DNA of 64,000 nucleotides from Thermoanaerobaculia bacterium (GTDB taxonomy: Bacteria > Acidobacteriota > Thermoanaerobaculia > Gp7-AA8): contig DATHRD010000015.1 of the NCBI GenBank assembly GCA_035482045.1, forward strand, positions 14,597 through 78,596. Reading direction: 5' to 3'. The position numbers and the translations under genes are program-made. Below are positions 262 through 61,679 of the stretch, one piece after another. The notes under the pieces were generated by a model. It was not told where the DNA came from, did no database searches, and saw only the letters and a program-made list of their open reading frames with translations. The first letter of the stretch is position 1. Each line of letters opens with the position of its first letter.

Positions 262-1050
262 ATGAGTTACGTCGTAGGTGAGTGGCTGAATCTCGCCGTC
301 CGCTGGACGCACGTCTTCGCGGCGATCATGTGGGTCGGGCAGACGTATTTCTTCACCTGGCTCGACCACACCTTCCAGGGAGAGAAGCAGGTCTGGATGG
401 TGCACAGCGGCGGTTTCTACATCGTCGACAAACAGAAGCGACCGGAACTGCTGAACCAGACGCTGCACTGGTTCAAATGGGAGGCGTTCTTCACGCTCGT
501 GTCGGGCTTTCTGCTGCTCATCCTCGTCTACTACGGCGGGGGCATCATGGTCGACGAAAGCGTCCTGAAGATCACGGCGTGGCAGGCGGCCGGACTCAGT
601 CTGGTCCTCATCGCGGCCTGCTGGTTCCTGTACGACTTTCTCTGGATCTCGCCGCTGCGAAGGTACGAGGTGGCGGGGACAATCGTCTCGTACCTGCTCC
701 TCGTCGGGGCCATCGTCGGTTCCACGCACCTCTTCTCCTCGCGGGCGGCATATATGCAGATCGGCGCCACGCTCGGCACGTTCATGGCGTTGAACGTCTG
801 GGTGCGCATCCTTCCGGCGCAGCGGCAGCTCATCGCGGCGGTGAAGGCCGGCGGTGAGCCGGACATGCGCCTGGCCGACCTCGCCAAGCAGCGCTCGAAG
901 CAGAACACGTTCATCGTCCTTCCCGTCGTCTTCATCATGATCAGCAGTCACTTCCCCGTCGCCACCTACGGCAGTCAGTACAACTGGCTCGTGCTGGCGG
1001 TGCTCGTGCTGGTGGGGTGGGGTGTAGCGAAGGTCATTCGTACGCGGTAG
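262..1050 (+). CDS. DUF989 / urate-oxidase-N-like polytopic membrane protein (PuuD membrane-domain-like, no cytochrome c domain seen)
   Basis: ORF 154..1050. Hydrophobic protein begins MSYVVGEWLNLAVRWTHVFAAIMWVGQTYFF at internal ATG 262, preceded by GAGGAG. Several predicted TM helices. Sits in a purine-catabolism neighbourhood. Confidence 0.5.
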   Translation: MSYVVGEWLNLAVRWTHVFAAIMWVGQTYFFTWLDHTFQGEKQVWMVHSGGFYIVDKQKRPELLNQTLHWFKWEAFFTLVSGFLLLILVYYGGGIMVDESVLKITAWQAAGLSLVLIAACWFLYDFLWISPLRRYEVAGTIVSYLLLVGAIVGSTHLFSSRAAYMQIGATLGTFMALNVWVRILPAQRQLIAAVKAGGEPDMRLADLAKQRSKQNTFIVLPVVFIMISSHFPVATYGSQYNWLVLAVLVLVGWGVAKVIRTR

Positions 1051-1145
1051 CGCGGTAGCGCGGTCGCGGGGTTGCGCGGTCTCGCGGTTTTCAACACCCG
1101 AGACCCCGAAACCGCGAGACCGCGAAACCGCGAAACCGCACACAG
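1045..1145. repeat. GC-rich palindromic intergenic element of the GCGGTCTCGCGG / CCGCGAGACCGC family
   Basis: gcggtagcgcggtagcgcggtcgcggggttgcgcggtctcgcggtttt...gaaaccgcgagaccgcgaaaccgcgaaaccgc. Inverted arms with internal short direct repeats. Confidence 0.7.
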
Positions 1146-4411: not shown

Positions 4412-4515
4412 GAACGAACCGAGACGAATGTTGAATGTTGAACGTTGAGTGTTAAATGTTGAATGAAGGTCAGCCACTCAACATTCACCACTGAACATTC
4501 AACATTCAACATTCG
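4405..4515. repeat. imperfect long inverted repeat built from tandem AATGTTG heptamers, AT-rich relative to the rest of the window
   Basis: acgaatgttgaatgttgaacgttgagtgttaaatgttgaatg ... cactcaacattcaccactgaacattcaacattcaacattcgt. Overlaps the 3-prime end of allantoinase and the 5-prime region of the allantoicase fusion gene. Confidence 0.8.
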
Positions 4516-5912: not shown

Positions 5913-6154
5913 TGTCATCCTGAGCCTGCCGGAGCCGCTGAGCGAGCGCAGCGCGAGTGCGGCGGAGGACGGCGAAGGATCTCCAGATGCGCTGCTTGGG
6001 GCAGAAGCACAGATGGGGTTTTGTCGTTGATCTTCCTCACAAAAACCACAGTTTCGCTACTGCCCCAGGCGCTGCCACTGGAGATCCTTCGCCGTCCTCC
6101 GCCGCTCTTCGCTCGCTACGCTCGCTCAGCGGCTGCGGCAGTCTCAGGATGACA
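5913..6154. mobile_element. MITE-like non-autonomous element, copy 1: about 74-bp near-perfect terminal inverted repeats with TGTCATCCTGAG termini
   Basis: Left arm tgtcatcctgagcctgccggagccgctgagcgagcgcagcgcgagtgcggcggaggacggcgaaggatctccag. Right arm ctggagatccttcgccgtcctccgccgctcttcgctcgctacgctcgctcagcggctgcggcagtctcaggatgaca. Central region of about 90 bp. A partial direct copy of the terminus (tgtcatcc) lies 12 bp upstream. Confidence 0.6.
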
Positions 6155-10694: not shown

Positions 10695-12164
10695 CTACAC
10701 CCGCGCGAAGCGACGTTCCGCCGCCTCTTCGAACACCTCGTACCAGAACTTCGCCATGATGTTCTCTGCGAGTTGCAGCCTGTAGTCGGCGGAGCCCCGC
10801 ACGTCGCTGATCGGCTTGATCTCGTCGCGGGCGATGCGGCCGGCGTGCTCGAAGGTATCAAGGGTGGCCGTCTTGCCGGCCAGGAAGGCTTCCGTGTGCG
10901 GGAGGCGGATGACGGTAGGGGCGACGCCGCCGTAGGCGATGATGGCGTGGTCGATCCGATCGCCGCTGATTGCCAATCGAATGGCGGCGGTGAAGGCGGA
11001 GATGTCGAGATCCTTGCGTCGCGAGACCTTGTAGAGCTTGAGCGTGTCGCGGACGATGGGGATGCGAACGCTGGTGATGATCTCGTCGGGATGGAGATCG
11101 AACTTCCGGTATCCGAGGTAGAAGCGGTCGATCGGAACGGTGCGAGTGCCGCCGTTCAGCGCGAGGGTGGCGCCGGCGACGAAGAGATAAGGCAACGTGT
11201 CGGCGATTGGAGAGCCGTTGGCGATGTTGCCGACCAGCGTTCCGGCGTTCTTGATCTGAGGTGAGCCGAACACGGCCAGGATGCCCGCCAGCTCGGGGAT
11301 GCGATCGGCGATGAACGTCTCGAAGTCGGCGAGCGTCGCATTCGCGCCGGCGACGATCGCGCCGTCTTCTTCGCGCAACTCGTTGAGCGATGCGATCTTC
11401 GACAGTGACAGCATCGCCGGCGCGGCGAGGTTCCGCTTGTTGACCCAGACGCCGACGTCGGTCCCCCCCTGCACGATCGTGCATCCGGGATGGCCGCGTT
11501 TGAAGGCGATTGCCTCGTCGAGCGTGGCCAGCGCGCAGAAGGAGCCGACCTCCACGGAATCGCTTGCATCCGGAAGATCGGGATAGCGGTCGCGCATCTT
11601 GCTGATCGGCGCGCCGTCGATCGCCAGCGCGGCCTTGATGATCGGCTCGTAGCCGGTGCAGCGGCAGAGGTTTCCGGTCAGCCCGTCACGTACCTGTTTT
11701 TCATCGACCCGGTCACAGCGCTCGAACATTCCGGCCATGGCCATGACGAAGCCGGGCGTGCAGTAGCCGCACTGCGCGCCGTGGCAACGAACCATGGCCT
11801 CCTGAACAGGATGGAGAACGTTTTTACGCGGAGACGCGGAGACGCGGAGGGAGTCCTCTTTTCTCCGCGTCTCCGCGCCTCCGCGTGAAACGGTTTTCGT
11901 TTCGCTCAATCCTTCCACCGTGACGATCGATGATCCATCGAGCTGCGCGAGCGAAAGGATGCAGGCGTTGACCGGACGATAGTCGGCATCGGCCGTGCGC
12001 CGGGTCAATACCGTGCAGGCGCCGCAATCCCCTTCCTCGCAGACGATCTTCGTCCCAGTGGCAGCGACATCCTGTCGAAGATAGTTCGCGAGGGTCTCGA
12101 AGGCGACATCGCCGGCGATGCGATGTTCACGGCCGTTGATGTGGATGAGGATGTGGTCGCGCAC
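10695..12164 (-). CDS. xdhA: xanthine dehydrogenase small subunit (2Fe-2S and FAD-binding)
   Basis: EEGDCGACTV and CGYCTPGFVM ferredoxin motifs followed by an FAD-binding domain. Contains an unusual in-frame palindromic segment (separate feature). Confidence 0.85.
   Translation of the reverse strand: MRDHILIHINGREHRIAGDVAFETLANYLRQDVAATGTKIVCEEGDCGACTVLTRRTADADYRPVNACILSLAQLDGSSIVTVEGLSETKTVSRGGAETRRKEDSLRVSASPRKNVLHPVQEAMVRCHGAQCGYCTPGFVMAMAGMFERCDRVDEKQVRDGLTGNLCRCTGYEPIIKAALAIDGAPISKMRDRYPDLPDASDSVEVGSFCALATLDEAIAFKRGHPGCTIVQGGTDVGVWVNKRNLAAPAMLSLSKIASLNELREEDGAIVAGANATLADFETFIADRIPELAGILAVFGSPQIKNAGTLVGNIANGSPIADTLPYLFVAGATLALNGGTRTVPIDRFYLGYRKFDLHPDEIITSVRIPIVRDTLKLYKVSRRKDLDISAFTAAIRLAISGDRIDHAIIAYGGVAPTVIRLPHTEAFLAGKTATLDTFEHAGRIARDEIKPISDVRGSADYRLQLAENIMAKFWYEVFEEAAERRFARV
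11826..11888. repeat. near-perfect 24-bp-stem hairpin embedded in frame in the xdhA interdomain linker
   Basis: cgcggagacgcggagacgcggaggga gtcctctttt ctccgcgtctccgcgcctccgcg. Encodes the low-complexity segment VSRGGAETRRKEDSLRVSASPRKN. Confidence 0.8.
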
Positions 12165-15169: not shown

Positions 15170-15415
15170 ACAACACCATCGAGAATGGCGATGTCGCCAA
15201 GAAAGATGGCGATGTTGCCATCGAACATGGCGATGTTGCCTTCGAAAATGGCGATATCGCCCCCAAAGATGGTGATTTGCCAAAAAAGATGGCGATGTCG
15301 CCCCCAAAGACGGCGATGTTGCCATCAAGGTTGATGATGTTGCCAAAAAAATGATGATGTCGCCAAGAAAAATGGCGAGGTTGTCATCCGAAGTGAGGAC
15401 GTTGCCATCACTCTC
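15170..15415. repeat. tandem array of about 11 degenerate 21-bp units, each containing the palindrome ATGGCGATGTTGCCAT
   Basis: gatggcgatgttgccatcgaac / atggcgatgttgccttcgaaa / atggcgatatcgcccccaaa ... Low-GC relative to the flanks. Lies upstream of the NCS1 permease gene and downstream of the dihydropyrimidinase gene. Confidence 0.8.
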
Positions 15416-18879: not shown

Positions 18880-19076
18880 CGGTTGCGGGGTCGCGCGGCA
18901 GCGTGATTGCGCGGTCTCGCGGATTCGGTTGCTGAGTCGCTGGGTTACTGAGTTGCTGAGTCTACGGAAGCTGCCCAGCAACCCAGCAACCCCAGCAACC
19001 CAGCAACCCCAGCAATCCAGCAACTCAGCAACTCAGCAACCCAGCACCCCGAGACCGCGCAGCCGCGAGACCGCGT
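18880..19076. repeat. long imperfect inverted repeat made of GTTGCTGAG / CCCAGCAAC short tandem units, flanked by GCGGTCTCGCGG and CGCGAGACCGCG
   Basis: Left arm gcgcggtctcgcggattcggttgctgagtcgctgggttactgagttgctgagtc. Right arm ccagcaacccagcaaccccagcaacccagcaaccccagcaatccagcaactcagcaactcagcaacccagcaccccgagaccgcgcagccgcgagaccgcg. Confidence 0.8.
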
Positions 19077-19136
19077 CCAACGAAATCCGACACCCTCCAT
19101 AGACGTTCCCAACCCCGCCGCCGTACATGTGTCACG

Positions 19137-21000: not shown

Positions 21001-21040
21001 GGGGCGCGGCGACTCACCCTCCGCCGCGCCCCACTTTTTG
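21001..21040 (+). terminator. rho-independent terminator
   Basis: ggggcgcggcg actcaccctc cgccgcgcccc acttttt: 11-bp perfect stem followed by a T-run. Confidence 0.7.
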
Positions 21041-21076
21041 CGGTTCCGCGGTCTCGCAGGTTTCGCGGTCTCGCGG
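21041..21076. repeat. direct repeats of the cgcggtctcgc motif
   Basis: cggttccgcggtctcgcaggtttcgcggtctcgcgg. Confidence 0.6.
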
Positions 21077-21189
21077 TAAGGCGGCACGGACAAGAGTGCC
21101 TGTGCCTGAAAAGAAGGTTGCCGCGCGACGGCGCAACCTCGCGACCTCGTCTGCTATCCTTTGAGCTGTCGCCGTTTCGGAGGATTTCA

Positions 21190-22589: not shown

Positions 22590-22734
22590 GTGGTTGCTGA
22601 GTTGCAAGGTTGCTGGGTCTCTCGGCAGCGCGGTCTCGCAGTAGCGCGGCGGCCACGAGCAGAGACCGCGAGACTTCGAAACCGCGAGACTTCGAGACCC
22701 AGCAACCCAGCAACCCGCATCACAGCAACCCGCA
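22590..22734. repeat. inverted repeat element combining GTTGCTG / CAGCAAC units with GCGGTCTCG / CGAGACCGC cores
   Basis: gttgctgagttgcaaggttgctgggtctc...gcggtctcg ... cgagaccgcgagacttcgaaaccgcgagacttcgagacccagcaacccagcaacccgcatcacagcaacccgcatcacag. Confidence 0.8.
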
Positions 22735-23382
22735 TCACAGCCCTTCCAGCGGCAAATCGAGCAGCTCGAACTTATCCCAGCCGCGAAAGTCGAAGTGCCA
22801 CCATTCGGATGGCAATGGGTCGAAGCCGTGGCTGATCATGGCCTCCCGCAGCTTGGCGCGATTCGCGAGAACCTCGGCCGGCAGGTCGTTGAAGTCCTGG
22901 CGCGCCCGAGGGGTGAAGTCGTCGTAGCCGGTGGGCATCGGCAGCTCGCGGCCGGTGTGCAGATCGATGAGCGTCAGATCGACGGCCGCGCCGCGGTTGT
23001 GACGCGAGCCTTTGGCCGGGTCGGCGACGAAGTCGGGATTGCGGATCGGTTTCCACATCTGTACAGTCACGCGATAGGGCCGATAGCCGTCGAAGATCTT
23101 CAACCCCAGCCCCTGGCGCGCCAGATCGCGCTCGACATCGTGCAGTGCGATCGCGGCCGGGCGGCGCAGGAAGACTCGCGGCACCGGATACAACTGCTCG
23201 TGCATGAAGTTGTTCGTGGTGGCGTAGCGCACGTCACGCGGGAGGTCGGTGATCTCGACCAGCCGTTTGTCGGGGTCGGCAGCCACGAGCCGGTCGTACT
23301 CGGCGACATCGCGGACGACGGGCGGATGCGTCGTCGCGCATGCGGTCGCAAGGAGCAGCAATAGGGCGAGGGCTCTTCTCAT
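22735..23382 (-). CDS. D-Ala-D-Ala dipeptidase (VanX/DdpX, M15 family) lipoprotein
   Basis: SRHNRGAAVDLTL and EWWHFD motifs. Lipobox LLLLATAC. Confidence 0.75.
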   Translation of the reverse strand: MRRALALLLLLATACATTHPPVVRDVAEYDRLVAADPDKRLVEITDLPRDVRYATTNNFMHEQLYPVPRVFLRRPAAIALHDVERDLARQGLGLKIFDGYRPYRVTVQMWKPIRNPDFVADPAKGSRHNRGAAVDLTLIDLHTGRELPMPTGYDDFTPRARQDFNDLPAEVLANRAKLREAMISHGFDPLPSEWWHFDFRGWDKFELLDLPLEGL

Positions 23383-37099: not shown

Positions 37100-37240
37100 T
37101 TACCTGATGTTGGGGGGTGGGGAGTGGGGGTGGGGAGTGGGAGAGGGAGTCGCGGTGGGAAGCTACTGCTCTGAAATCCAACTCCCAACTGCCACTCCCA
37201 CCCCCCACTCCCCACTCCCCACCCCCCACCCCGCGATATC
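37100..37240. repeat. G-rich / C-rich long palindrome of the GGGGTGGGGAGTGG family between mglA-like and eda-like genes
   Basis: ggggggtggggagtgggggtggggagtgggagagggag ... ctcccaactgccactcccaccccccactccccactccccaccccccacccc. Confidence 0.8.
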
Positions 37241-39868: not shown

Positions 39869-39879
39869 CCGAGGCCCCA

Positions 39880-40215
39880 GAGTCGATGTTTTGTCTCCCG
39901 GAGCAAAAGCTTTGACTCCCAGAGCCCAAGTCTTGACTCCCAGAGTCGAAGTTTTGACTGACAGAGTCGAAGTTTTGACTCCCGGAGTCGAAGTTTTGAC
40001 TCCCGGAGTCGCACTTTAGACTCCCAGAGTCGCACTTTAGACTCCCAGAGTCGCACTTTAGACTTCCGGAGTCGCACTTTAGACTTCCGGAGTCGCACTT
40101 TAGACTTCCGGAGTCGCACTTTAGACTCCCAGAGTCGCACTTTAGACTCTCAGAGTCGCACTTTAGACTCTCAGAGTCGCACTTTAGACTCTCAGAGTCG
40201 ATGCTTAGGCTCACT
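39880..40215. repeat. tandem array of about 15 copies of a 21-bp unit GAGTCGCACTTTAGACTCCCA, forming continuous alternating palindromes GAGTC...GACTC
   Basis: Early copies are the variant gagtcgaagttttgactccc[ag]. Later copies are gagtcgcactttagact[ct]cc[ag]. Lies in a convergent 3-prime/3-prime intergenic region. Confidence 0.85.
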
Positions 40216-50236: not shown

Positions 50237-50249
50237 TCGGCATGCTCCC

Positions 50250-50406
50250 TGTCATCCTGGGGCGGCGGCGCCCCGGAGGGGCAAAGCGCGCCGAAGGACC
50301 CCCAACGCGCTTGCATCGACGGATAACCACCACCCGCCCTGGTTACCAGGCTGGGGGTCGTTCGTCGTCCTGCACCCCTCCGGGGTTTCGGCGACTCAGG
50401 ATGACA
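50250..50406. mobile_element. MITE-like element, copy 2, with the same TGTCATCCTG...CAGGATGACA termini as copy 1
   Basis: tgtcatcctggggcggcggcgccccggaggggcaaagcgcg ... ccggggtttcggcgactcaggatgaca. Fills the convergent gap between the histidine kinase and the Spy-like gene. Confidence 0.6.
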
Positions 50407-50409
50407 GCA

Positions 50410-50791: not shown

Positions 50792-51115
50792 TTACTCGAC
50801 ACTGAACGTATCCCCTCCGACCGAGATGTCGACGCTCTGCGTGCTCGTGAGCGCATCGAGCGCCGTGGCTGGCGTTTCGCGAGGTTGTTCGAGCCACTGT
50901 ACGCCCAGCGCCGCCACGAGCGCGAGCGTGCCCAGTGAGGCTACGACGGGGCGGAACCAGCGGGCCAGAACAAGGGCGATGCCAGCCTGCGACTCGGCCG
51001 TGATCCGCTCGCGGACGCGCGCGGCGATGCGTGTGGTCATTATGTCGTCCGGCTCGAAACGGAGTTGCCGTGCCTCGCCGCGTAGTCGATCCAGGAAGTC
51101 GTCGTCCTCAGTCAT
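50792..51115 (-). CDS. small membrane anti-sigma-like protein
   Basis: 107 aa with a single TM helix (WFRPVVASLGTLALVAALGV). Overlaps the sigma gene stop. Confidence 0.4.
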   Translation of the reverse strand: MTEDDDFLDRLRGEARQLRFEPDDIMTTRIAARVRERITAESQAGIALVLARWFRPVVASLGTLALVAALGVQWLEQPRETPATALDALTSTQSVDISVGGDTFSVE

Positions 51116-51767
51116 TGCTGCCCCCGTGAAGGTCTGCGAGTTTCTCTTTCAGTTTGCCGCGGGCGAGCGATAGATGAGAGCGTACCGTCCCTTCGCTCAG
51201 TCCCGTCATCGTTGCGATTTCAGAGTGCCCGAATTCGTCGACCAGATACAAGCGTGCCACGATTCTCTGCATCTCCGGCAGTGACTCGATGCCGCGATCG
51301 ATCCGCTGCGCCAGCTCGTTCGCGATCGCGGGCAGGTCGGCGCGGTCGCGCCGCGCCGCCGGTGCCGCGTCGGTGATCTCTTCGTGCCGGAACCTCTTCC
51401 GATGCTTCATCACGTCGAGCGCCAGATTCGTCACGATGCGGTAGATCCATGGTCCGAACGGTTCGCCGGTCTTGAACCGTCCGACGCTCTCGAACGCCTT
51501 GACGAACGCCTCCTGCGCCAGGTCCTCCGCGTCGGCCGCGTTGCGTACGATTCCCCAGCCGATCGAGACCACCCGCTTCATGTATTTCGAAACGAGGTAG
51601 TCGTATGACCCGGCGTCGCCGGCTTTGACGGCGGCAATCGCACGCGCTTCAATCGGATCTTCGTTTGCTGCGCTTCTCGTCTGCGCCCTCTCCGCCGAAA
51701 AAACCAGACGACCGAGCGCGAGGGGGCCGCCCGCGGCACCCCCGAACATCGACGTGGCGTCCATCAT
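51108..51767 (-). CDS. ECF-type sigma factor
   Basis: Regions 2 and 4 (IATMTGLSEGTVRSHLSLARGKL). Confidence 0.8.
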   Translation of the reverse strand: MMDATSMFGGAAGGPLALGRLVFSAERAQTRSAANEDPIEARAIAAVKAGDAGSYDYLVSKYMKRVVSIGWGIVRNAADAEDLAQEAFVKAFESVGRFKTGEPFGPWIYRIVTNLALDVMKHRKRFRHEEITDAAPAARRDRADLPAIANELAQRIDRGIESLPEMQRIVARLYLVDEFGHSEIATMTGLSEGTVRSHLSLARGKLKEKLADLHGGSND

Positions 51768-51771
51768 CTTC

Positions 51772-52242
51772 CTACTTGTCTGCGAGCTTTGCCATCCGCT
51801 GTTGCAGGAAGGCCGCAGCCTTGGTTCGTTGATCGGACGTTAGCACGTTGAGCGCCTTCGAGGCAGCGGCGAGCGTGTTCACCTTGATCTGCCGCTCGGC
51901 GTCGGCCTGCTTGTCGATCAGCGCCTGCGGGGTGGCCAGGTCGTTCGGGTTGGCGAGCAACGCCTGAGCGATCGACTGCCTTCCAGCCCGAAGTGCCGTG
52001 CGGTAGGGTTCATTCTGCGCCTGCAGGTCTGTGAAGATCTTCTTGATGTCGGTGGCCTGCTGATCCGAAAGTCCGAGTGCGGCTTTGGCCTTCCCCATGC
52101 GACCGAACATCATCATGCTGCTGCCACCCGTGCAGCCGTGTGCGCGGCTGGCGGCATGCAAGCGCTGCGCTACCGCGAACGGCACGGCGAGCGCGACGAT
52201 GAGGATCGCCGCCGCCGAGAAAATCAGAGTGCGCTTCTTCAT
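51772..52242 (-). CDS. periplasmic LTXXQ-motif (Spy/CpxP-like) protein
   Basis: Signal peptide MKKRTLIFSAAAILIVALAVPFAVAQ. LGLSDQQATDIKKIF and LTSDQRTKAAAFL. Confidence 0.6.
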   Translation of the reverse strand: MKKRTLIFSAAAILIVALAVPFAVAQRLHAASRAHGCTGGSSMMMFGRMGKAKAALGLSDQQATDIKKIFTDLQAQNEPYRTALRAGRQSIAQALLANPNDLATPQALIDKQADAERQIKVNTLAAASKALNVLTSDQRTKAAAFLQQRMAKLADK

Positions 52243-52325
52243 GAGGGTTCTCCTTGTTGCCGAAGAGGTTACGACGGTATGAGGGGAACGTTGAACATAT
52301 AATCCCGGCAACTCGATCCGCTCCT

Positions 52326-53627
52326 ATGCGCCCTCTTTTTGCAGCCATGGCTCTTATCGCCGCGGGTCTCAGCCCCGCTCTCGCGCAGCCTCTTGTCTGT
52401 CCCCCTGTCGCCTCCGTCGCCGGCCGTGCGTGCGACACGTTTCACTATCACGTGCAGATGTTCAAGCCGGATACCCGCGAGTTCGTCGAGCTTTACGGGG
52501 TCAACCAGTTCGCCTCGATGGCGGCTTGTGAACGTGCCCGCGATGTGCAGTTCAAACGCAACATGGCGGTTGTCGAGTTCTTTCGTGCGCAGAGGAGAGA
52601 CTGGTGGCAGGCCGACAAATTCGGGCAGTGCCATTGCGACATGACCGTCGAACGCGCCAGCCCGAACGCGTTGACGGACGCCGCGCGGGTCCAGCAGATC
52701 CACGACGCGGAAGAGGTTCGGCAACGCGTCCGGGAGCGCCTGCTCGATGCCAGAGTCCCGGCAGACGCAGAGCTGATCCGCGATCTGGCCCCGCCGGTCA
52801 GCACCACACCGCTCATCGGCGGTCCCAAGCTGGTGTCGATGCCGCCTCCGGTTGCGGCCACGACAGTCTCGGGCTCGCCCGACGATCTTCGGATCACGAA
52901 GGCGGTCGATACGACCCCAGCATCGACGACATCGCTCGATCTGCCTCTCGTCGATGTCCCGTTGCCGGGCATCGCGCCGGCCATGGAAACCGCTCCCGCC
53001 ACTACGCCGACGCAAGTGCCGCCGCCCTCCGTGCCGCAGACGTCTGCCCCGGCTCCAGTCAGCAACGCCCCGGCGCAAGCGGTTCCAGCACCGCAGCCCG
53101 CGCAACCTTCGCCAGCCCCCGTCTCCACCGAGCCGTTGGCCATCGTCGACGATCCCGATCTCCCGGCGCCTGAAGATGTCGCAGACGCCTTCGTCAGCTA
53201 TGAGTCGCAGCGTATCCAGAACGTGTTGAAGGTCAGCGGCAGCATCGGCGACGAATCGATCAAGGCTCAGGTGCTCGATGCCTGTACGCAGCGGATCCAA
53301 CTCCTTTCGAACCTTCGCTCGATCATCGTCGGGTCCGGTGCGAAGAGTCGTCTGGTCGCGGCCACGAATGTCGCGAGAAAAGAGAGCGACCGCCTGGCCG
53401 TGGTGGCAAAACTGTTCGGGAGTGACGTGCCGCCGCACTGGGCGCCCAAGGATGCGTCCGATGTGATCTTCGACCCGGGTGTCACGGACCCGGAGCGAGT
53501 GCTCCGCGACAGCTCGTCGTCCGATCAACAGAAACGCCACGCTCTCTACGTTCTGCTGGCGACGACATCGCCGACCGAGCAGCAGCAGATGTGGCTAAAC
53601 TCCGTGATCGAGGCGCTGCTGAAATGA
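52326..53627 (+). CDS. secreted hypothetical protein with Pro/Thr/Ala-rich linker
   Basis: Signal peptide MRPLFAAMALIAAGLSPALAQ. Low-complexity PAPQPAQPSPAP segment. No family recognised. Confidence 0.5.
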   Translation: MRPLFAAMALIAAGLSPALAQPLVCPPVASVAGRACDTFHYHVQMFKPDTREFVELYGVNQFASMAACERARDVQFKRNMAVVEFFRAQRRDWWQADKFGQCHCDMTVERASPNALTDAARVQQIHDAEEVRQRVRERLLDARVPADAELIRDLAPPVSTTPLIGGPKLVSMPPPVAATTVSGSPDDLRITKAVDTTPASTTSLDLPLVDVPLPGIAPAMETAPATTPTQVPPPSVPQTSAPAPVSNAPAQAVPAPQPAQPSPAPVSTEPLAIVDDPDLPAPEDVADAFVSYESQRIQNVLKVSGSIGDESIKAQVLDACTQRIQLLSNLRSIIVGSGAKSRLVAATNVARKESDRLAVVAKLFGSDVPPHWAPKDASDVIFDPGVTDPERVLRDSSSSDQQKRHALYVLLATTSPTEQQQMWLNSVIEALLK

Positions 53628-55423
53628 AACCAGAAACCAGAAACCAAGAACCAGAAACCAGAAACCAGAAACCAGCAAGCGTGCGGCGATCACGATTCTC
53701 ATTTCCGCCTTCTGGTTTCTGGTTTCTGGTTTCTGGTTTCTGCCTTCTGGTTTCTGCCTCCTGCCTTTTCGCGCAGGCGCCGCCAGCTTCGCCCGTTCCG
53801 GCGCAGCCCGCAGGCCCTCCTTCTCAGCCCGCCGCGTCCGCGGCCATGCCTCCGAGCGAAGAGTTCGTGAAGGCGGTTTACTTCGGCGAAAAGTTCGCCG
53901 AGATGAAGGATTACGCAAACGCCTATCAGCAGTTCGCGAAGGCGGACGCGCTGCAGCCCGATGTGCCAGGTGTGCTGTACAACATGGGGGTTCTCCTCGC
54001 CCGCGCCGGCCGCTTCTCGGAGGCACAGGCCAAGGTCGATCGCTACAACCAGCTCTTTCCGGCCGGTGCCGAGAAACCGCTCGTCGCCAAACTGCAACTC
54101 GATCTGGAGTTCGAGCGGGAGCTTCAAAAGAAACGGCAGACGGATGAGGAGTACACCGCCATCTTCACGAGGGGCCGGTTCCTTTACGGCAAGGGTGATC
54201 TTTCAGCCGCGCTCAAGCTGTTCCAGGACGCCGAGCAACAGCGCCCTACCGATCCGGCCGCCGTTTTCAACCAGGGCGTTGTCTATGAAAAGCTCGGGGA
54301 TCTGAACAGAGCGGCGGAGCGCTTTCACCGCTACGAAGAACTGGAGCCCGACGCGAACGCGAAGTCGTCGGCGGATCAGCGCCTGCTCGGTATCGAGAGC
54401 GAGATGTCGGACATGAAGACGAAGATTGTCTGCCCCTTCTGCGGATGGCGGCTGCCGATCGGGTCGATCTGGTGCCCGCACTGCTGGCACGGTCCGTATC
54501 TCACGTCACAATCGCACTGGAATTCGAGGCCGTGTACCGATGGAGCAACGGCGACGCGCGCGACGTATTACGCTGACGGTCGTTTCGCGAAAAACGATTC
54601 ACTGCCTTGTCTCTTCAACGGCATGATGCTCGACGCGCTCCGCTATACGCCTGACCGCCAGCGGCGAGTCCAGGAGACGCGCAAGGCCGAGGGGTGGACG
54701 TACAGCGGAGACCTCATCCAGGGGTGGCATGACCGGCAGGGCAATGAGATTCGTTACGTCCAGGGGGCCGACTACCTCGAAAAGATCGTTTCCCCCAGCG
54801 GCGGAGACCTGCTGCTGTTCAACGCTCACAAAGCGCCTGATGCCGGTATCTGGCTGCTCGATCGGGAGGATGTCGTCATCGACGGTCAGAAGTACACGTC
54901 GCGCTACACCTTCGACGCCCAGAATCGCGTCGCCGAGCAGCAGGTCGTTTATCAGAACGCCGCCGGCTGCAATGACGTCATCACGATGACGGCACTCGCC
55001 ACGTACACGAACGATCTTCTGGCGGGGTTGCAGATCCGCGGAGGTTATACGGGCACTGTCGTTCAGGGCTCGCCGCGCGTCGATTGGGAGGCCAACGTCG
55101 CCTTCTCCTATGACGTCAACGCGCGAGAGACGAAGGAAGAGCTGGCCGTGAGCTCGATGACGAAGACCTACACGGAAAAGCCCTACGGCATGATGCGTCA
55201 GGAAGTGGCCGCGCTCTATCCGGAAATGCGCGTCCGCAAACCGATCGAGAGGATCCTCTATCTCGGCGATCGCTGCGGTGTCTCCGGCACGACAGTCCTC
55301 GGCAATCCCGTCGACCTCCGGCCGTTCTATGCCCTCACTCCGAATCTGGCCGTGGCCATCGCCAGCGGCGTCACCCGTGCGACGGTGAGTTTCACGTATC
55401 CGGACTCGTATAGGGTTCGATAG
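53624..55423 (+). CDS. secreted TPR-containing protein; signal peptide encoded by a (GAAACCA)n / (TGGTTTC)n inverted repeat
   Basis: MKPETRNQEPETRNQKP...FWFLVSGFCLLVSASCLFAQA then TPR-like units. ATGA overlap with the upstream stop. Confidence 0.55.
   Translation: MKPETRNQEPETRNQKPASVRRSRFSFPPSGFWFLVSGFCLLVSASCLFAQAPPASPVPAQPAGPPSQPAASAAMPPSEEFVKAVYFGEKFAEMKDYANAYQQFAKADALQPDVPGVLYNMGVLLARAGRFSEAQAKVDRYNQLFPAGAEKPLVAKLQLDLEFERELQKKRQTDEEYTAIFTRGRFLYGKGDLSAALKLFQDAEQQRPTDPAAVFNQGVVYEKLGDLNRAAERFHRYEELEPDANAKSSADQRLLGIESEMSDMKTKIVCPFCGWRLPIGSIWCPHCWHGPYLTSQSHWNSRPCTDGATATRATYYADGRFAKNDSLPCLFNGMMLDALRYTPDRQRRVQETRKAEGWTYSGDLIQGWHDRQGNEIRYVQGADYLEKIVSPSGGDLLLFNAHKAPDAGIWLLDREDVVIDGQKYTSRYTFDAQNRVAEQQVVYQNAAGCNDVITMTALATYTNDLLAGLQIRGGYTGTVVQGSPRVDWEANVAFSYDVNARETKEELAVSSMTKTYTEKPYGMMRQEVAALYPEMRVRKPIERILYLGDRCGVSGTTVLGNPVDLRPFYALTPNLAVAIASGVTRATVSFTYPDSYRVR
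53625..53765. repeat. inverted repeat composed of tandem GAAACCA heptamers (left arm) and TGGTTTC heptamers (right arm)
   Basis: gaaaccagaaaccagaaaccaagaaccagaaaccagaaaccagaaacc ... ttctggtttctggtttctggtttctgccttctggtttctg. Confidence 0.85.
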
Positions 55424-58414: not shown

Positions 58415-58493
58415 TTGCGAAGTGGCGCGGTTGCGGGGTCTCGCGGCGGCCGGCTACCGCGCGACCTCGGAACCGCGAGACTGCGAGACCGCG
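58415..58493. repeat. GCGGTCTCGCGG palindromic element abutting the bshA start codon
   Basis: gcggttgcggggtctcgcgg ... ccgcgagactgcgagaccgcg ATG. Confidence 0.75.
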
Positions 58494-59612
58494 ATGAGAA
58501 TCGGCATCACCTGCTATCCCACATTCGGAGGCTCGGGCGTTGTGGCCACGGAGCTCGGCGTCGCCCTGGCCCGCGGCGGCGACGACGTTCACTTCATAAG
58601 CTACGCCATGCCGTCGCGCCTCAACGTGCTGCACGAGCGCGTCCGCTTTCACGAGGTAACGGTCACGCCGTATCCCCTGTTTGATCCGTACCCGCCCTAC
58701 ACGCTGGCTCTGGCCACGAAGATGGCCGAGGTGGCCGTTTACGAAAAGCTCGACATCCTCCACGTGCACTACGCGATCCCGCACGCCATCAGCGCGCACC
58801 TGGCGCGCGAGATCGTCGGCTCGAAGGACCTTCGCTTCATCACGACGCTGCACGGTACCGACATAACGCTCGTCGGACGCGACGCAAGTTATCTGCCGAT
58901 CACCAGGTTCGGCATCGAGGTGTCCGACGGCGTGACCGCGGTGTCGGAATGGCTTCGAAAAGAGACCGCGAAGAACTTCGCCACCGAGAAGGAAATCGAA
59001 GTCATCCCGAACTTCGTCGATCCGGCCCGATTCCGCAAGCACGACAGCTCTCTCTCGAATCTTTTCTCCTCTTCGGGCGAGAAGCTGCTCTGTCATGTCT
59101 CCAACTTCCGCCCCGTCAAACGGATCATGGACGTGCTCGTGGTGTTCGAGCGCGTGTCGCGCGTGGTGCCCAGTCGTCTGGTGATGATCGGCGACGGCCC
59201 GGACCGTTCCCTCGCGGAGGCCTTCTGCCGCGACCATCACCTGCGCGAGAAAGTCTTTTTCCTCGGCAACGTTCCGAACCTCGAGGAGGTCGTTGGCGCC
59301 GCGGACGTTTTTCTCCTCCCGTCCGAGGCCGAGTCATTCGGTATGGCCGCTCTCGAAGCGATGGCCTCCGAGGTGCCGGTGATCGGCAGCCGTGCCGGCG
59401 GCCTGACCGAAGTCGTCGTGGAGGGAGAGACCGGCTACCTTCTCCCCGTCGGCGACGTCGAAGCGATGGCCGAGCGCGCCATCGAGATCCTCTCGAATCC
59501 CGACCTCCACCGCCGCCTGGGGCGGAATGGGCGGGATCTGGCGGAGGGGAAGTTCAACGTGAATCGTGTGGTGCCGAGGTATCGGGAGTTCTACGAGAGG
59601 GTGATCGGGTAG
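58494..59612 (+). CDS. bshA: GT4 glycosyltransferase BshA-like (N-acetylglucosaminyl-malate synthase)
   Basis: [22 protein letters not shown] is a BshA-type N-terminus. C-terminal E..E GT4 motif. Confidence 0.7.
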
Positions 59613-61007: not shown

Positions 61008-61095
61008 ATAGGACGCGGTGTGTCGCGGTCTCGGGGTTGCGGGGTTACGAGGTCTCGGGGTTACGAGATCGCGGAGTGGGGGTTGCTGGGTTGCT
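61008..61095. repeat. GCGGTCTCG-family element forming the left flank of a 22-bp tandem array
   Basis: gcggtgtgtcgcggtctcggggttgcggggttacgaggtctcggggttacgagatcgcggagtgggggttgctgggttgc. Confidence 0.7.
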
Positions 61096-61129: not shown

Positions 61130-61620
61130 TCAGTCATGGCTGTGAATCCGTCCATTCCAGACCCCGTGACTTGATGTCCCAGACCCCGAGACCTGATGTT
61201 CTGAACCCCGTGGATTGACGTCCCAAACCCCGAGACCTGACGTTCCACACTTCGGGACTCGCGTTCCGTACCCGGGACCTGACGTTCCGCACCCCGGGAC
61301 CTGACGTTCCGCACCCCGGGACCTGAGGTTCCGGACCCCGGGACCTGACGTTCCACACCCCGGGACCTGACGTTCCGGACCCCGAGACCTGACGTTCCGG
61401 ACCCCGAGACCTGACGTTCCGCACCCCGGGACCTGACGTTCCGGGCCCCGAAACCTGACGTTTCACACCCCGGGACCTGACGTTACGGACCCCGAGACCT
61501 GACATTACGCACCCTGGGACCTGACGTACCAAACCCCGAGACCTGACGTACCAAACCCCGAGACCTGACGTTACGGACCCCGAGACCTGACGTTACGGAC
61601 CCCGAGACCCGACGTTCCAC
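61130..61620. repeat. tandem array of about 20 degenerate copies of a 22-bp unit ACCCCGGGACCTGACGTTCCGC
   Basis: Copy variants accccgagacctgacgttccgg, accccgggacctgaggttccgg and others, with period 22. Closed by accgcgagaccgc at about 61620-61632. Confidence 0.85.
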
Positions 61621-61679
61621 ACCGCGAGACCGCATAACCTCGGCCCATGACCCACCTGCCGAAACTGCGCGACCGCGAA

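What the first reader, a model, noticed from the sequence alone, without database searches (positions are those of the whole stretch)
53591..53790. The signal peptide of a secreted TPR protein is encoded by an inverted repeat of GAAACCA / TGGTTTC heptamers
The (GAAACCA)n left arm is translated as a charged n-region (KPETRNQEPETRNQKP). The (TGGTTTC)n right arm gives the hydrophobic h-region (FWFLVSGFCLLVS), followed by an AQA-type cleavage site. A DNA or RNA hairpin of more than 40 bp is therefore superimposed on the translation start of the gene. The start ATG overlaps the upstream stop in an ATGA arrangement. This could be a translational or secretion attenuator, or a repeat element captured into a leader peptide.
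Basis: seen in the sequence. Interest (0 to 1): 0.7.

Follow-up and report, generated by a model that had tools for sequence, protein, structure and literature searches.

The report
Signal peptide encoded by a heptamer hairpin
A soil Acidobacteriota genome carries many small hairpin-forming repeat elements, and one sits at the start of a gene for an exported protein, where one arm of the hairpin encodes the charged start of the export signal, the other arm encodes its greasy core, and the middle of the hairpin has been flipped compared with the closest relative.

Summary
(GAAACCA)x7 at 53626-53675 and (TGGTTTC/TTCTGCC)x~8 at 53710-53767 form a hairpin of about 50 bp (z about -10). It begins 2 nt after an ATG that overlaps the upstream gene's TGA.

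About 100 orthologous loci from Thermoanaerobaculia MAGs show:
1. The protein family always carries an N-terminal signal peptide, and the ATGA junction is ancestral.
2. Many lineages have a heptamer hairpin at exactly this junction, with at least five different unit sequences. The T-rich arm always encodes the hydrophobic core.
3. Of 29 distinct hairpin alleles, 25 are open and in frame from the ATGA start. Four are a short uORF whose TGA overlaps an ATG in the loop. None is in the third frame. Ribosomes therefore read the left arm.
4. The window's loop is the reverse complement of the loop in a 96.6%-identical relative. The inversion removed the usual loop SD+ATG, leaving ATG 53624 as the best start. 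A second lineage flipped independently.
5. Inverted 7-8-mer arrays are a class-wide element, usually intergenic: 8 scored pairs (10 by eye) in this window, about 62 in 635 kb.

Any regulatory role, such as enforced translational coupling, is inferred and not shown. I rate it a new variant of known kinds.

The parts
52326..53627 (+). Upstream gene: a conserved hypothetical protein with no Pfam match, 433 aa from ATG 52326, with its own signal-peptide-like N-terminus. Its stop TGA at 53625-53627 overlaps the next start.
   Evidence: ORF list. No Pfam hit. The same 433-aa gene is called upstream in L001, L002 and L109. The C-terminal motif and the TGA/ATG overlap are conserved in about 70 loci.
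53624..53626 (+). ATG start codon in the ATGA overlap with the upstream stop. It is the ancestral start of the TPR gene and the only good in-frame start in this allele.
   Evidence: In plain-signal-peptide orthologues the signal peptide begins at this ATG. JGI calls the 599-aa protein from here.
53626..53675 (+). 5' arm: (GAAACCA)x7 with one AGAACCA variant. It is translated as KPETRNQEPETRNQKP, a charged extension of the n-region.
   Evidence: Frame census. Mean hydropathy of the encoded unit is -3.0.
53676..53709 (+). Loop or spacer, translated ASVRRSRFSFPP. It is the reverse complement of the loop in close relatives. On the minus strand it carries the displaced GAAGGCGGAA-ATGAGAATCG (SD-like motif plus ATG, with the ATG at 53702-53700).
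   Evidence: Comparison with L001. Flip-back simulation. Pattern hit at 53693-53702 on the minus strand.
53681..53683 (+). GTG in frame inside the loop. It is an alternative start, judged less likely because no SD-like motif precedes it and it was created by the inversion.
   Evidence: Inference.
53710..53767 (+). 3' arm: (TTCTGGT)x4, TTCTGCC, TTCTGGT, TTCTGCC, TCCTGCC. It is translated SGFWFLVSGFCLLVSASC, the hydrophobic core of the signal peptide.
   Evidence: The best 12-residue Kyte-Doolittle mean is 2.38, similar to orthologues' signal peptides. The homologous arm encodes FCLLLSAFCL in orthologues.
53768..53779 (+). c-region L-F-A-Q-A. The likely signal peptidase site is after A50 (between 53773 and 53774, LFA|QA), or alternatively after A52 (AQA|PP).
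   Evidence: Conserved [A/G]-Q pattern across orthologues. No signal-peptide predictor was available, so this is inference.
53624..55423 (+). TPR-repeat protein gene (599 aa from ATG 53624). It has TPR repeats, a CxxC...CxxC motif and a conserved C-terminal region.
   Evidence: Pfam TPR_19, TPR_2 and TPR_11. 534 homologues. An exact 599-aa product is on record in JGI.
53846..53848 (+). ATG used by the NCBI annotation (525-aa product). It gives a protein with no signal peptide and was rejected as the true start.
   Evidence: This Met is absent in distant orthologues.
53595..53702 (-). Antisense 35-codon ORF (MRIVIAARLLVSGFWFLVLGFWFLVSFQQRLDHGV). It was created when the inversion moved the former SD+ATG to the other strand, and is probably not expressed.
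   Evidence: minus-strand ORF text.

Best explanation
This is one copy of a class-wide type of repeat element in Thermoanaerobaculia: two inverted tandem arrays of a 7-8-nt unit around a short unique loop. The elements normally fill intergenic spacers. At this locus the two genes had no spacer, because the stop and start overlap as ATGA, so the element lies inside the 5' end of the downstream gene and is translated.

The T-rich 3' arm encodes the hydrophobic core of the Sec-type signal peptide of a conserved exported TPR protein. The A-rich 5' arm encodes a charged extension of the n-region. This works because complementary codons have opposite hydropathy (middle A versus middle T). A hairpin with A-rich then T-rich polarity therefore spells 'charged, then hydrophobic' in every frame.

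In most relatives the loop also carries its own SD-like GAAGG plus an ATG or GTG (M-R-I-V-I-A). In this strain the central segment was inverted by recombination between the arms. That start now lies on the other strand, and translation must begin at ATG 53624.

Inferred consequence: the hairpin starts 8 nt after that ATG and should block free 30S binding. The TPR protein would then be made mainly by ribosomes that have just terminated on the upstream gene and have already opened the base of the stem, which is enforced translational coupling.

Shown here: the structure, the conservation, the frame constraint, the inversion and the genome-wide class. Inferred: actual export, the start codon used, and any coupling or attenuation effect.
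For: 1. Structure and significance.
2. Orthologues all carry N-terminal signal peptides, and the ATGA junction is near universal.
3. Hairpins occur at the same junction in many lineages with units GAAGGCA, GAAACCA, GACAGCA, GAATGCA and GGTTGCT (z from -4 to -15), whereas plain alleles have z of about 0.
4. Frame census of 29 distinct hairpin alleles, fetched through the mature protein and so unbiased for frame: 25 in frame and open, 4 with a uORF TGA overlapping the loop ATG, 0 in the third frame. Total lengths range from 96 to 234 nt.
5. The three lineages without a usable loop start (the window flip, the L091-93 flip and L109 with ATG>ACG) are all open from the ATGA start.
6. Right-arm-only alleles (L009, L010, L094, L095) show that the T-rich array alone serves as a signal peptide. 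L008 and L094 differ by a clean 41-nt indel flanked by AAATGA(A/G)G.
7. Inversion: rc(window loop) is GAAATGAGAATCGTGATCGCCGCACGC and the L001 loop is GAAATGAGAATCGTGATCGTGGCGCGC. L001 is 96.6% identical over 7.3 kb. The flipped state is identical in an independent ENA k141 contig, and the exact 599-aa product is on record from a JGI assembly. Flipping back in the best register regenerates an L003/L082-like N-terminus.
8. Arms co-vary: 93.9% of cells are paired and 7 of 31 pairs change on both sides, exceeding 500/500 shuffles; slid controls give 0-1.
9. Hydropathy: the A-rich units score -1.3 to -3.0 and their complements +1.6 to +2.5. The window h-region scores 2.38 and the n-region has net charge +4.
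10. Class-wide elements: 8 scored inverted 7-8-mer pairs (10 by eye) in the window, in tandem, divergent and convergent spacers, and 62 pairs in 635 kb of Thermoanaerobaculia DNA. A hairpin is also present in a 6.6-Mb chromosome-level assembly (L006). GAAACCA and GAAGGCA hairpins occur at many unrelated loci.
Against: - There is no experimental or read-level evidence. All sequences are metagenome assemblies, and inverted repeats are hard to assemble.
- No signal-peptide predictor could be run. A 24-residue n-region with acidic residues and a PPSG kink in the h-region are atypical. The mature part contains a zinc-ribbon-like CxxC...CxxC motif, which is unusual for an exported protein.
- The frame census is not phylogenetically independent; many alleles share an ancestral 33-nt left arm.
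- Co-variation of the arms could come from arm-to-arm conversion through repeated inversions rather than from selection for pairing.
- Several lineages lost the left arm, or carry a plain signal peptide, with no visible cost, so the hairpin is not essential.
- GTG 53681 is in frame and cannot be excluded as the start.
Confidence: 0.7

Rival explanations
1. The repeat hairpin is a tolerated passenger with no regulatory effect. A genome-wide mutational process (slippage plus template switching or inverted duplication) seeds such hairpins wherever sequence constraint is loose, and a signal-peptide coding region is one such place. Selection acts only to keep the reading frame open and the T-rich arm hydrophobic.
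For: The elements occur in every kind of spacer, including divergent promoter regions, so no single function fits. Hairpin, right-arm-only and plain alleles are interspersed in the tree of the mature protein. The left arm can be lost cleanly. The same units occur at many unrelated loci.
Against: A hairpin recurs at this one junction with at least five different units. The arms remain 85-95% complementary with compensatory changes. The unit next to the loop ATG keeps the SD-like GAAGG even where distal units changed to GAAACCA. A 50-bp stem starting 8 nt after a start codon is physically unlikely to be neutral for initiation; this last point rests on established knowledge of 30S binding and is an inference.
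Confidence: 0.35
2. Translation starts inside the loop at GTG 53681 (MRRSRFSFPPSGFWFLV...). The left arm is then an untranslated intercistronic hairpin arm, and only the right arm is coding.
For: Most relatives have an ATG or GTG in the loop, in frame and preceded by GAAGG. GTG 53681 is in frame and would give a textbook short n-region with net charge +3.
Against: This GTG exists only because of the inversion, and no SD-like sequence precedes it. It is partly paired in the predicted fold. If left arms were untranslated their length modulo 3 should be random, but the census is 25:4:0. L109 lacks any loop start yet stays open from the ATGA start.
Confidence: 0.15
3. The hairpin is a genetic switch. 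Inversion of the loop (start codon on or off the sense strand) and gain or loss of heptamer units (a +1 frame shift per unit) toggle expression or the leader form of the TPR protein, as the CTCTT repeats do in Neisseria opa leader peptides.
For: Both orientations exist between 96.6%-identical strains, and a second lineage flipped independently. The 7-nt units are not multiples of 3, and they encode a hydrophobic peptide in all frames, as in opa (PMC3960869). Both orientations are open in frame in the best register.
Against: No out-of-frame (OFF) allele occurs among 29. The flipped state is shared by L091 and L092, which differ by 4%, so flips are rare and stable. Contigs that are 99.9% identical (L092, L093) have the same repeat numbers. 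No recombinase gene was looked for. Consensus assemblies cannot show minority variants.
Confidence: 0.12
4. The NCBI annotation is right: the gene starts at ATG 53846, the protein is cytoplasmic, and the repeat is a non-coding intergenic hairpin such as a terminator or an mRNA-stabilising element.
For: NCBI calls a 525-aa product from 53846. Most other elements of this class are intergenic. The CxxC...CxxC motif suggests a cytoplasmic zinc ribbon.
Against: The 222 nt from 53624 to 53846 are open in frame. The region encodes a signal peptide plus a Pro/Ala linker in nearly all full-length orthologues, and this Met is not conserved in distant ones. A start at 53846 leaves no hydrophobic segment; the best Kyte-Doolittle mean is 0.62. 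No terminator-like site lies at the hairpin, whose stem is A/U-rich and is followed by only 4 U.
Confidence: 0.04

Closest known systems
Coding repeats in the leader peptide of Neisseria opa genes ((CTCTT)n)
   Same: A short pyrimidine-rich tandem repeat whose length is not a multiple of 3 lies in the leader-peptide coding region (PMC3960869). That it encodes the hydrophobic core in any frame rests on my own knowledge.
   Different: opa has a single direct array with no complementary arm, and its copy number varies at about 1e-3 per generation to switch the gene on and off. Here there are two inverted arrays forming a hairpin, both are translated, and no frame-shifted allele was seen.
Intergenic heptamer tandem repeats: cyanobacterial STRR, Beggiatoaceae TAACTGA repeats, Geobacter heptanucleotide elements
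   Same: These are 7-nt units in short tandem arrays, present in many copies per genome, mostly between genes and often just upstream of start codons, with unknown function (PMC4679880, PMC2700814; STRR from my own knowledge, named in PMC4748335).
   Different: The unit sequences and the phylum differ. Here the arrays come as inverted pairs forming long hairpins (the TAACTGA study reports 169 direct sets and one indirect). This copy is inside a coding sequence.
REP/BIME-type extragenic palindromes
   Same: Abundant, imperfect hairpin-forming elements that fill spacers between genes of an operon, proposed to affect mRNA stability, termination or supercoiling (PMC3733652).
   Different: REPs have a conserved family sequence (GTAG or CGTC heads) and are not built from tandem 7-8-mers. 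They are extragenic by definition, whereas this copy is translated.
Hairpin-associated minute inversions in plastid DNA (Kelchner and Wendel 1996, cited in PMC7393888)
   Same: The loop between two short inverted repeats is found in either orientation in close relatives, and the change is recurrent.
   Different: Those cases lie in non-coding plastid DNA. Here the flipped loop lies inside an open reading frame, carries a start codon with its SD-like motif, and both orientations remain translatable.
Translational coupling through overlapping stop and start (ATGA) with a structured downstream start
   Same: The overlap is conserved across the family, and a stable stem begins just downstream of the start. 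This is the classical arrangement in which the downstream cistron depends on translation of the upstream one (established knowledge).
   Different: The sequestering structure is a 50-bp repeat hairpin that is itself the coding sequence of the signal peptide. Dependence on upstream translation is not shown.

Membership tests
Sec-type (signal peptidase I) signal peptide | Positively charged n-region | tested here: met
   Net charge is +4 before the hydrophobic core from ATG 53624 (RRSR lies directly before it), or +3 from GTG 53681. At 24-31 residues it is unusually long.
Sec-type (signal peptidase I) signal peptide | Hydrophobic h-region of about 10-20 residues | tested here: met
   FWFLVSGFCLLV has a mean Kyte-Doolittle value of 2.38, against 2.4-2.9 for orthologues' signal peptides and 0.62 if the protein started at 53846.
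Sec-type (signal peptidase I) signal peptide | Small residues at -3 and -1 of a cleavage site after the h-region | tested here: inconclusive
   AQA|PP has Pro at +1, which is disfavoured. LFA|QA fits the [A/G]|Q pattern conserved in orthologues. No predictor was available.
Sec-type (signal peptidase I) signal peptide | Protein is actually exported and the peptide cleaved | not testable with these tools
   This needs a reporter fusion or N-terminal sequencing.
Intergenic heptamer tandem repeats (STRR / TAACTGA / Geobacter type) | Tandem 7-nt unit, at least 3 copies, many loci per genome, mostly intergenic | tested here: met
   8 scored inverted 7-8-mer pairs (10 by eye) in 64 kb and 62 pairs in 635 kb.
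Intergenic heptamer tandem repeats (STRR / TAACTGA / Geobacter type) | The family's own unit sequence (e.g. TAACTGA; GGGACCG/GGACCGG; CCCCAGT) | tested here: not met
   The units here are GAAACCA, GAAGGCA, GAATGTT, TGGGGAG, ACCGCGAG and CCCAGCAA. It is the same kind of element, not the same family.
Phase-variable coding repeat in a leader peptide (opa type) | Non-triplet short repeat inside the leader-peptide coding region | tested here: met
Phase-variable coding repeat in a leader peptide (opa type) | Copy-number variants that shift the frame (ON/OFF) among close relatives | tested here: not met
   None of the 29 alleles is out of frame without a coupled start. Contigs that are 99.9% identical have equal copy numbers. 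Minority variants within a population could not be examined.
Invertible DNA switch (site-specific, fimS/hin type) | Segment flanked by inverted repeats found in both orientations | tested here: met
   The window against L001, and L091-93 against L089.
Invertible DNA switch (site-specific, fimS/hin type) | Both orientations within one population, and a dedicated recombinase | not tested
   No reads were available and no recombinase search was made. Flips are stable over about 4% sequence divergence, which argues against rapid switching.
Hairpin-mediated minute inversion (plastid type) | Loop between short inverted repeats inverted between close relatives, recurrently | tested here: met
   Two independent lineages. 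The register I2 inversion reproduces the relatives' arrangement.
Intrinsic (Rho-independent) terminator | Short G+C-rich stem followed by a U-tract | tested here: not met
   No terminator-like site lies at 53600-53800. The stem is 52 bp and A/U-rich, and is followed by CUUUUC.
Known RNA family (Rfam) | Match reaching a family's gathering score | tested here: not met
   There were only generic long-hairpin hits to plant and animal miRNA precursors, at 39 bits against a gathering score of 184.
Translational coupling via ATGA overlap | Overlapping stop and start conserved across orthologues | tested here: met
   The TGA/ATG overlap is present in nearly all of about 75 loci.
Translational coupling via ATGA overlap | Downstream translation depends on upstream translation | not testable with these tools
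   This needs a reporter with a premature stop in the upstream gene.

The most novel reading that the evidence does not exclude
Thermoanaerobaculia have a genome-wide process that makes heptamer and octamer hairpins. Because complementary codons have opposite hydropathy, hairpins with A-rich then T-rich polarity act as ready-made signal-peptide modules (charged n-region plus hydrophobic core). These modules repeatedly replace or create leader peptides. At this gene they additionally form an invertible, slippage-prone unit that selects between two start codons and two leader forms, a new type of translational switch built from a repeat element.
Probability: 0.2. Interest if true: 0.8.

Novelty: new variant of a known kind. 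Interest (0 to 1): 0.6.

Why it matters
If confirmed, this shows a simple route by which non-coding repeat DNA becomes a functional protein-targeting signal. A hairpin of short A-rich and T-rich repeats encodes 'charged then hydrophobic' in every frame, so a signal peptide can arise or be replaced without point-by-point evolution.

It also bears on annotation. NCBI and JGI call this same gene with starts 222 nt apart, and hairpin elements of the same unit types elsewhere are called as spurious small ORFs.

It documents that Thermoanaerobaculia, abundant soil bacteria known mostly from MAGs, carry a dense population of hairpin repeats at gene junctions. The literature searches made here found no description of them.

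Finally, it gives a natural test case for how ribosomes initiate and elongate through a 50-bp stem, and for loop inversion inside a coding sequence.

Tried and rejected
- Rfam scan of 53000-54400 gave only sub-threshold miRNA-precursor look-alikes, which are generic hairpin matches.
- The promoter and terminator scan found nothing at the element, so 'terminator' was rejected.
- ATGAGAATCG, the loop start motif, also begins the gene at 58494. I tested it for enrichment and found 5 hits against 5.85 expected, so I treat it as coincidence.
- A search with the consensus leader peptide MKAEGRRQKAE...FCLLLSAFCL returned only 19 short hypothetical ORFs. This shows that GAAGGCA hairpins exist elsewhere, but it revealed no second protein family with a hairpin-encoded signal peptide.
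- The library-wide search with the window's first 60 residues gave the same picture for GAAACCA.
- I counted G.U pairs against A.C mismatches in predicted stems (47 against 13) to separate RNA-level from DNA-level constraint. MFE folding and protein-level selection against proline bias the count, and my stem-walking picked the wrong helix in about 10 loci, so I judged it inconclusive.
- An NJ tree intended to time the gain of the hairpin instead showed plain and hairpin alleles interspersed, so no single gain or loss scenario could be fixed.
- The JGI contig carrying the 599-aa call could not be read because the sample file is too large.
- Assembly artefact as the explanation for the flip was considered. 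It was rejected because identical sequence occurs in a k141 ENA contig, and a second flipped lineage is seen in three samples, including contigs that differ by 4%.


Full report
**1. The observation**

Positions 53624-53780 read ATGA, then seven GAAACCA units (one is AGAACCA), a 34-nt unique stretch, eight TTCTGGT/TTCTGCC units, and CTTTTCGCGCAGGCG.
- Tandem Repeats Finder reports 7.1 and 6.7 copies.
- The repeat finder gives arms of 51 nt at 88% complementarity, or 45 nt at 91%.
- A two-unit 14-mer occurs 11 times, all at this locus, against 0.19 expected; 0 of 100 shuffles reach that count.
- As RNA, 53600-53800 folds to -100.7 kcal/mol with z = -10.35. The main stem has 52 pairs.
The upstream ORF's TGA (53625-53627) overlaps ATG 53624.

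**2. Source and annotation**

The window is 63% G+C. The exact protein from ATG 53624 (599 aa) is on record from a JGI assembly. The exact protein from ATG 53846 (525 aa) is NCBI HSY48175.1, from a Thermoanaerobaculia MAG. Two pipelines therefore place the start 222 nt apart, which is the question the finding raises. Pfam finds TPR repeats in the protein and nothing in the upstream protein.

**3. What orthologues show**

A homologue search returned 534 relatives. Nearly all full-length ones begin with a signal-peptide-like segment ending in [A/G]-Q, followed by a Pro/Ala-rich linker and then ...EEF.KAV.

I fetched 77 loci from species-representative genomes, all Thermoanaerobaculia or Acidobacteriota MAGs, including two chromosome-level assemblies. 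I fetched another 29 from metagenomes.

In nearly every locus the upstream gene's TGA overlaps an ATG. In 'plain' alleles the signal peptide starts at that ATG (for example ATGATGATTCCG, MMIPALLFAVA). The ATGA start is therefore ancestral and functional.

Many lineages instead have a heptamer hairpin there. It consists of a left arm (GAAGGCA)n or (GAAACCA)n, a loop that usually contains GAAGG-N6-ATG/GTG AGA ATC GTG ATC GC (M/V-R-I-V-I-A), and a right arm (TTCTGCC)n or (TTCTGGT)n read as FCLLLSAFCL or LVSGFWFLVS, followed by [A/G]-Q.

More distant orthologues (56-62% identity) carry hairpins at the same junction built from other units: GACAGCA, GAATGCA and GGTTGCT. Folding gives z from -4 to -15 for hairpin alleles and about 0 for plain ones. 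L006 comes from a 6.6-Mb chromosome-level assembly and has the hairpin, so the element has also been assembled within a chromosome-scale sequence.

**4. Is the repeat translated?**

The right arm must be. It is the only hydrophobic segment between the start and the mature protein, and a start at 53846 leaves none (best 12-residue Kyte-Doolittle mean 0.62, against 2.38 with the arm). Alleles with a right arm only (L009, L010, L094, L095: MKGLIANVCVLLSAFCLIAQE) use it as an ordinary signal peptide.

For the left arm I made a census that is unbiased for frame, because the loci were found through the mature protein. Among 29 distinct hairpin alleles:
- 25 are open and in frame from the ATGA start, with total lengths of 96-234 nt;
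- 4 (L001, L008, L012, L014) are in the +1 frame, and there the short ORF ends in a TGA that overlaps the loop ATG, giving a second ATGA;
- none is in the third frame.

One-unit slippage shifts the frame by one, so an unconstrained left arm should populate all three frames. Three lineages lack a usable loop start: the window (flipped), L091-93 (flipped) and L109 (ATG>ACG). All three are open from the ATGA start.

The alleles are not phylogenetically independent, but they include at least a dozen different lengths and five unit types. I conclude that ribosomes read the left arm, either into the protein or up to a stop-start junction at the loop.

**5. The loop is inverted in this strain**

L001 is 96.6% identical to the window over 7.3 kb. 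It has GAAATGAGAATCGTGATCGTGGCGCGC between its arms. The reverse complement of the window's loop is GAAATGAGAATCGTGATCGCCGCACGC.

The window's orientation is identical in an ENA contig assembled with k = 141, and the exact 599-aa translation is recorded from a JGI assembly.

Inverting 53640-53740 in the best register (arms 53626-70 and 53710-54) regenerates MKPETRNQKPETRNQKAEMRIVIAARLLVSGF... (breakpoints 53660-53720 retain Q-E-P), which matches the N-termini of L003 and L082. Other registers introduce stops.

A second flip is seen in L091, L092 and L093. Their loop GTTAGTTGCGATCATTCTCAC is the reverse complement of a loop like that of L089 (GTGAGAATCGTGATCGCGGCTAAC). L091 and L092 differ by 4% yet are both flipped, so flips are rare and stable.

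The flip moved the SD-like GAAGGCGGAA and the ATG to the minus strand, where they now head a 35-codon antisense ORF. On the sense strand only ATG 53624, or the SD-less GTG 53681, remains.

**6. Why a hairpin can encode a signal peptide**

Each A-rich unit translates, in all three frames, to a hydrophilic and mostly basic heptapeptide: ETRNQKP, EGRRQKA, DSRQQTA. Its complement translates to a hydrophobic one: WFLVSGF, CLLPSAF, CCLLSAV. Mean hydropathy is -1.3 to -3.0 for the A-rich units and +1.6 to +2.5 for their complements. This follows from the genetic code, where a middle A pairs with a middle T. An A-rich then T-rich hairpin therefore spells the n-region and h-region of a signal peptide.

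**7. The element class**

The window contains 10 composite inverted 7-8-mer elements by eye; 8 pairs were scored by the TRF-based census. The eight scored pairs are at 1043-1139, 4426-4514, 11826-11886, 18928-19050, 21047-21149, 37111-37232 (scored twice) and 53626-53756; by eye, further elements lie at 22590-22745, 58425-58494 and 61015-61094. They occur in tandem, divergent and convergent spacers. Several fill the whole spacer and overlap a stop codon or abut a start codon.

Across 635 kb of fetched Thermoanaerobaculia DNA there are 62 such pairs with many unit sequences, often at the junction after the TPR gene as well. Peptide searches show GAAACCA and GAAGGCA hairpins at many unrelated loci, usually called as spurious small ORFs. 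The finding is thus one member of a class. It is unusual only in being translated.

**8. Arm co-evolution**

I built an alignment by hand from nine alleles with the same architecture, with arms in register and the loop replaced by AAAA.
- 93.9% of cells pair.
- 7 of 31 pairs change on both sides (for example G-C to A-U at the innermost pair, and A-U to U-A in GCTGAAGG/CCTTCAGC).
- This exceeds all 500 shuffles; slid registers give 0-1.

The pattern may reflect selection for pairing, or conversion between arms through repeated inversions. The present data cannot separate the two.

**9. Mechanism**

Shown here:
- the hairpin;
- its conservation;
- the frame constraint;
- the inversion;
- the class.

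Inferred:
- The protein is exported using this leader.
- ATG 53624 is the start.
- Because the stem begins 8 nt after that ATG, free 30S subunits are hindered. Initiation then depends on ribosomes terminating at the overlapping TGA, which have already opened the base of the stem. That would be enforced translational coupling.

In relatives with a forward loop, the GAAGG unit next to the loop ATG is retained even where distal units became GAAACCA. This suggests a second start that is presented in the loop or opened by ribosomes crossing the left arm.

The main rival is that the hairpin is a tolerated passenger. That view is supported by clean loss of the left arm (a 41-nt indel flanked by AAATGA(A/G)G) and by plain and hairpin alleles being interspersed in the tree.

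**10. Comparison with known systems**

- The closest analogue for coding is the (CTCTT)n leader-peptide repeat of Neisseria opa genes (PMC3960869). That is a single direct array which switches frames at high rate, and no frame-shifted allele was found here.
- The closest analogues for the element class are intergenic heptamer repeats: TAACTGA in Beggiatoaceae (PMC4679880), heptanucleotide elements in Geobacter (PMC2700814), cyanobacterial STRR, and REP-type palindromes (PMC3733652). The units differ, and those are not described as translated hairpins.
- The loop flip resembles hairpin-associated minute inversions in plastid DNA (Kelchner and Wendel 1996, cited in PMC7393888), but here it lies inside an ORF and displaces a start codon.
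- Rfam has no matching family, and there is no terminator-like site.

I found no description of a signal peptide encoded by both arms of a repeat hairpin. The literature search was limited to four queries.

**11. Verdict**

The element is best described as a new variant of known kinds: a short-tandem-repeat hairpin exapted into a translated leader peptide, with a strain-specific loop inversion. Interest is moderate to high (0.6). The anatomy and the comparative pattern are striking and make clear predictions, but function is unproven and all data come from metagenome assemblies.

Noticed in passing
window 61155-61631; 39876-40201; 15185-15407: Three long tandem arrays with 21-22-nt units: 22 nt x 21.8, 21 nt x 15.5 and 21 nt x 9.6. 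At least the first two lie in intergenic spacers (one divergent, one convergent). The 22-mer CCCCGAGACCTGACGTTCCGGA contains a CCGAGACC core related to the ACCGCGAG octamer. They are not CRISPR arrays because there are no spacers.
   Followed up: partly
window 1043-1139, 4426-4514, 11826-11886, 18880-19080, 21040-21150, 22590-22745, 37108-37232, 58425-58494, 61015-61094: Nine further inverted 7-8-mer tandem-array hairpins. Two octamer families recur and are nested inside one another in either order (ACCGCGAG/CTCGCGGT and CCCAGCAA/TTGCTGGG). Several fill the whole spacer between co-directional genes and contain the upstream stop codon or abut the next start codon.
   Followed up: partly
window 37111-37232: The (TGGGGAG)n / (ACTCCCC)n hairpin lies in a divergent promoter region between genes starting at 37087 (minus strand) and 37249 (plus strand). 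The G-rich arm could also form a G-quadruplex.
   Followed up: no
window 5956-6108 and 50249-50407: Two long imperfect palindromes that are not simple tandem arrays: arms of 67 nt at 81% complementarity and 56 nt at 77%. The second begins CTGTCATCCTG... and ends ...CAGGATGACAG, between convergent genes. It may be a different repeat family.
   Followed up: no
orthologous loci L003-L109 (junction about 150-230 nt upstream of the match start): Plain signal-peptide cassettes (MMIPALLFAVAVAQQ, MIAFFFAVALAQQ) and hairpin cassettes are interspersed on the tree of the mature protein. For example, L085 (hairpin) sits among L083, L084, L087 and L088 (plain), and L013, L096 and L097 (plain) sit among L014, L016 and L100 (hairpin). 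This suggests exchange of leader cassettes by recombination, or repeated replacement.
   Followed up: partly
L011 4079-4182, L029 4047-4131, L040 4076-4172, L058 4067-4273, L059 4067-4173, L027 2024-2105: In several relatives another heptamer hairpin, with different units, sits immediately after the TPR gene's stop codon, before the methyltransferase gene. Both ends of this gene therefore attract such elements.
   Followed up: no
L029 2327-2442: At the same ATGA junction, one distant orthologue has a hairpin of opposite polarity, with the T-rich GGTTGCT arm first. It is still open in frame and lies in front of an ordinary signal peptide (…RWRLLILLLLALPLAAQ).
   Followed up: partly
window 58494-58507: The gene that starts directly after the hairpin at 58425-58494 begins ATGAGAATCGGCAT. 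This is identical to the loop start of the TPR hairpin in L081 (MRIGI...). The 10-mer is not enriched in the window, so it is probably coincidence.
   Followed up: yes
window 54431-54484 (residues about 270-287 of the 599-aa protein): The exported TPR protein contains an invariant CPFCG...WCPHCWHG motif, like a zinc ribbon. This is unusual for a periplasmic or secreted protein. It may form disulfides, or it may call the predicted location into question.
   Followed up: no
window 21001-21045: A textbook intrinsic terminator (GGGGCGCGGCG...CGCCGCGCCCC followed by ACTTTTTG) lies directly upstream of a repeat hairpin. This suggests that the repeat hairpins are not the genome's terminators.
   Followed up: no
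window 51108-52311 (minus strand): An ECF sigma factor gene and a gene for an LTXXQ/heavy-metal-resistance family periplasmic protein lie divergently upstream of the two-gene unit. This arrangement is conserved in L001 and L109.
   Followed up: no
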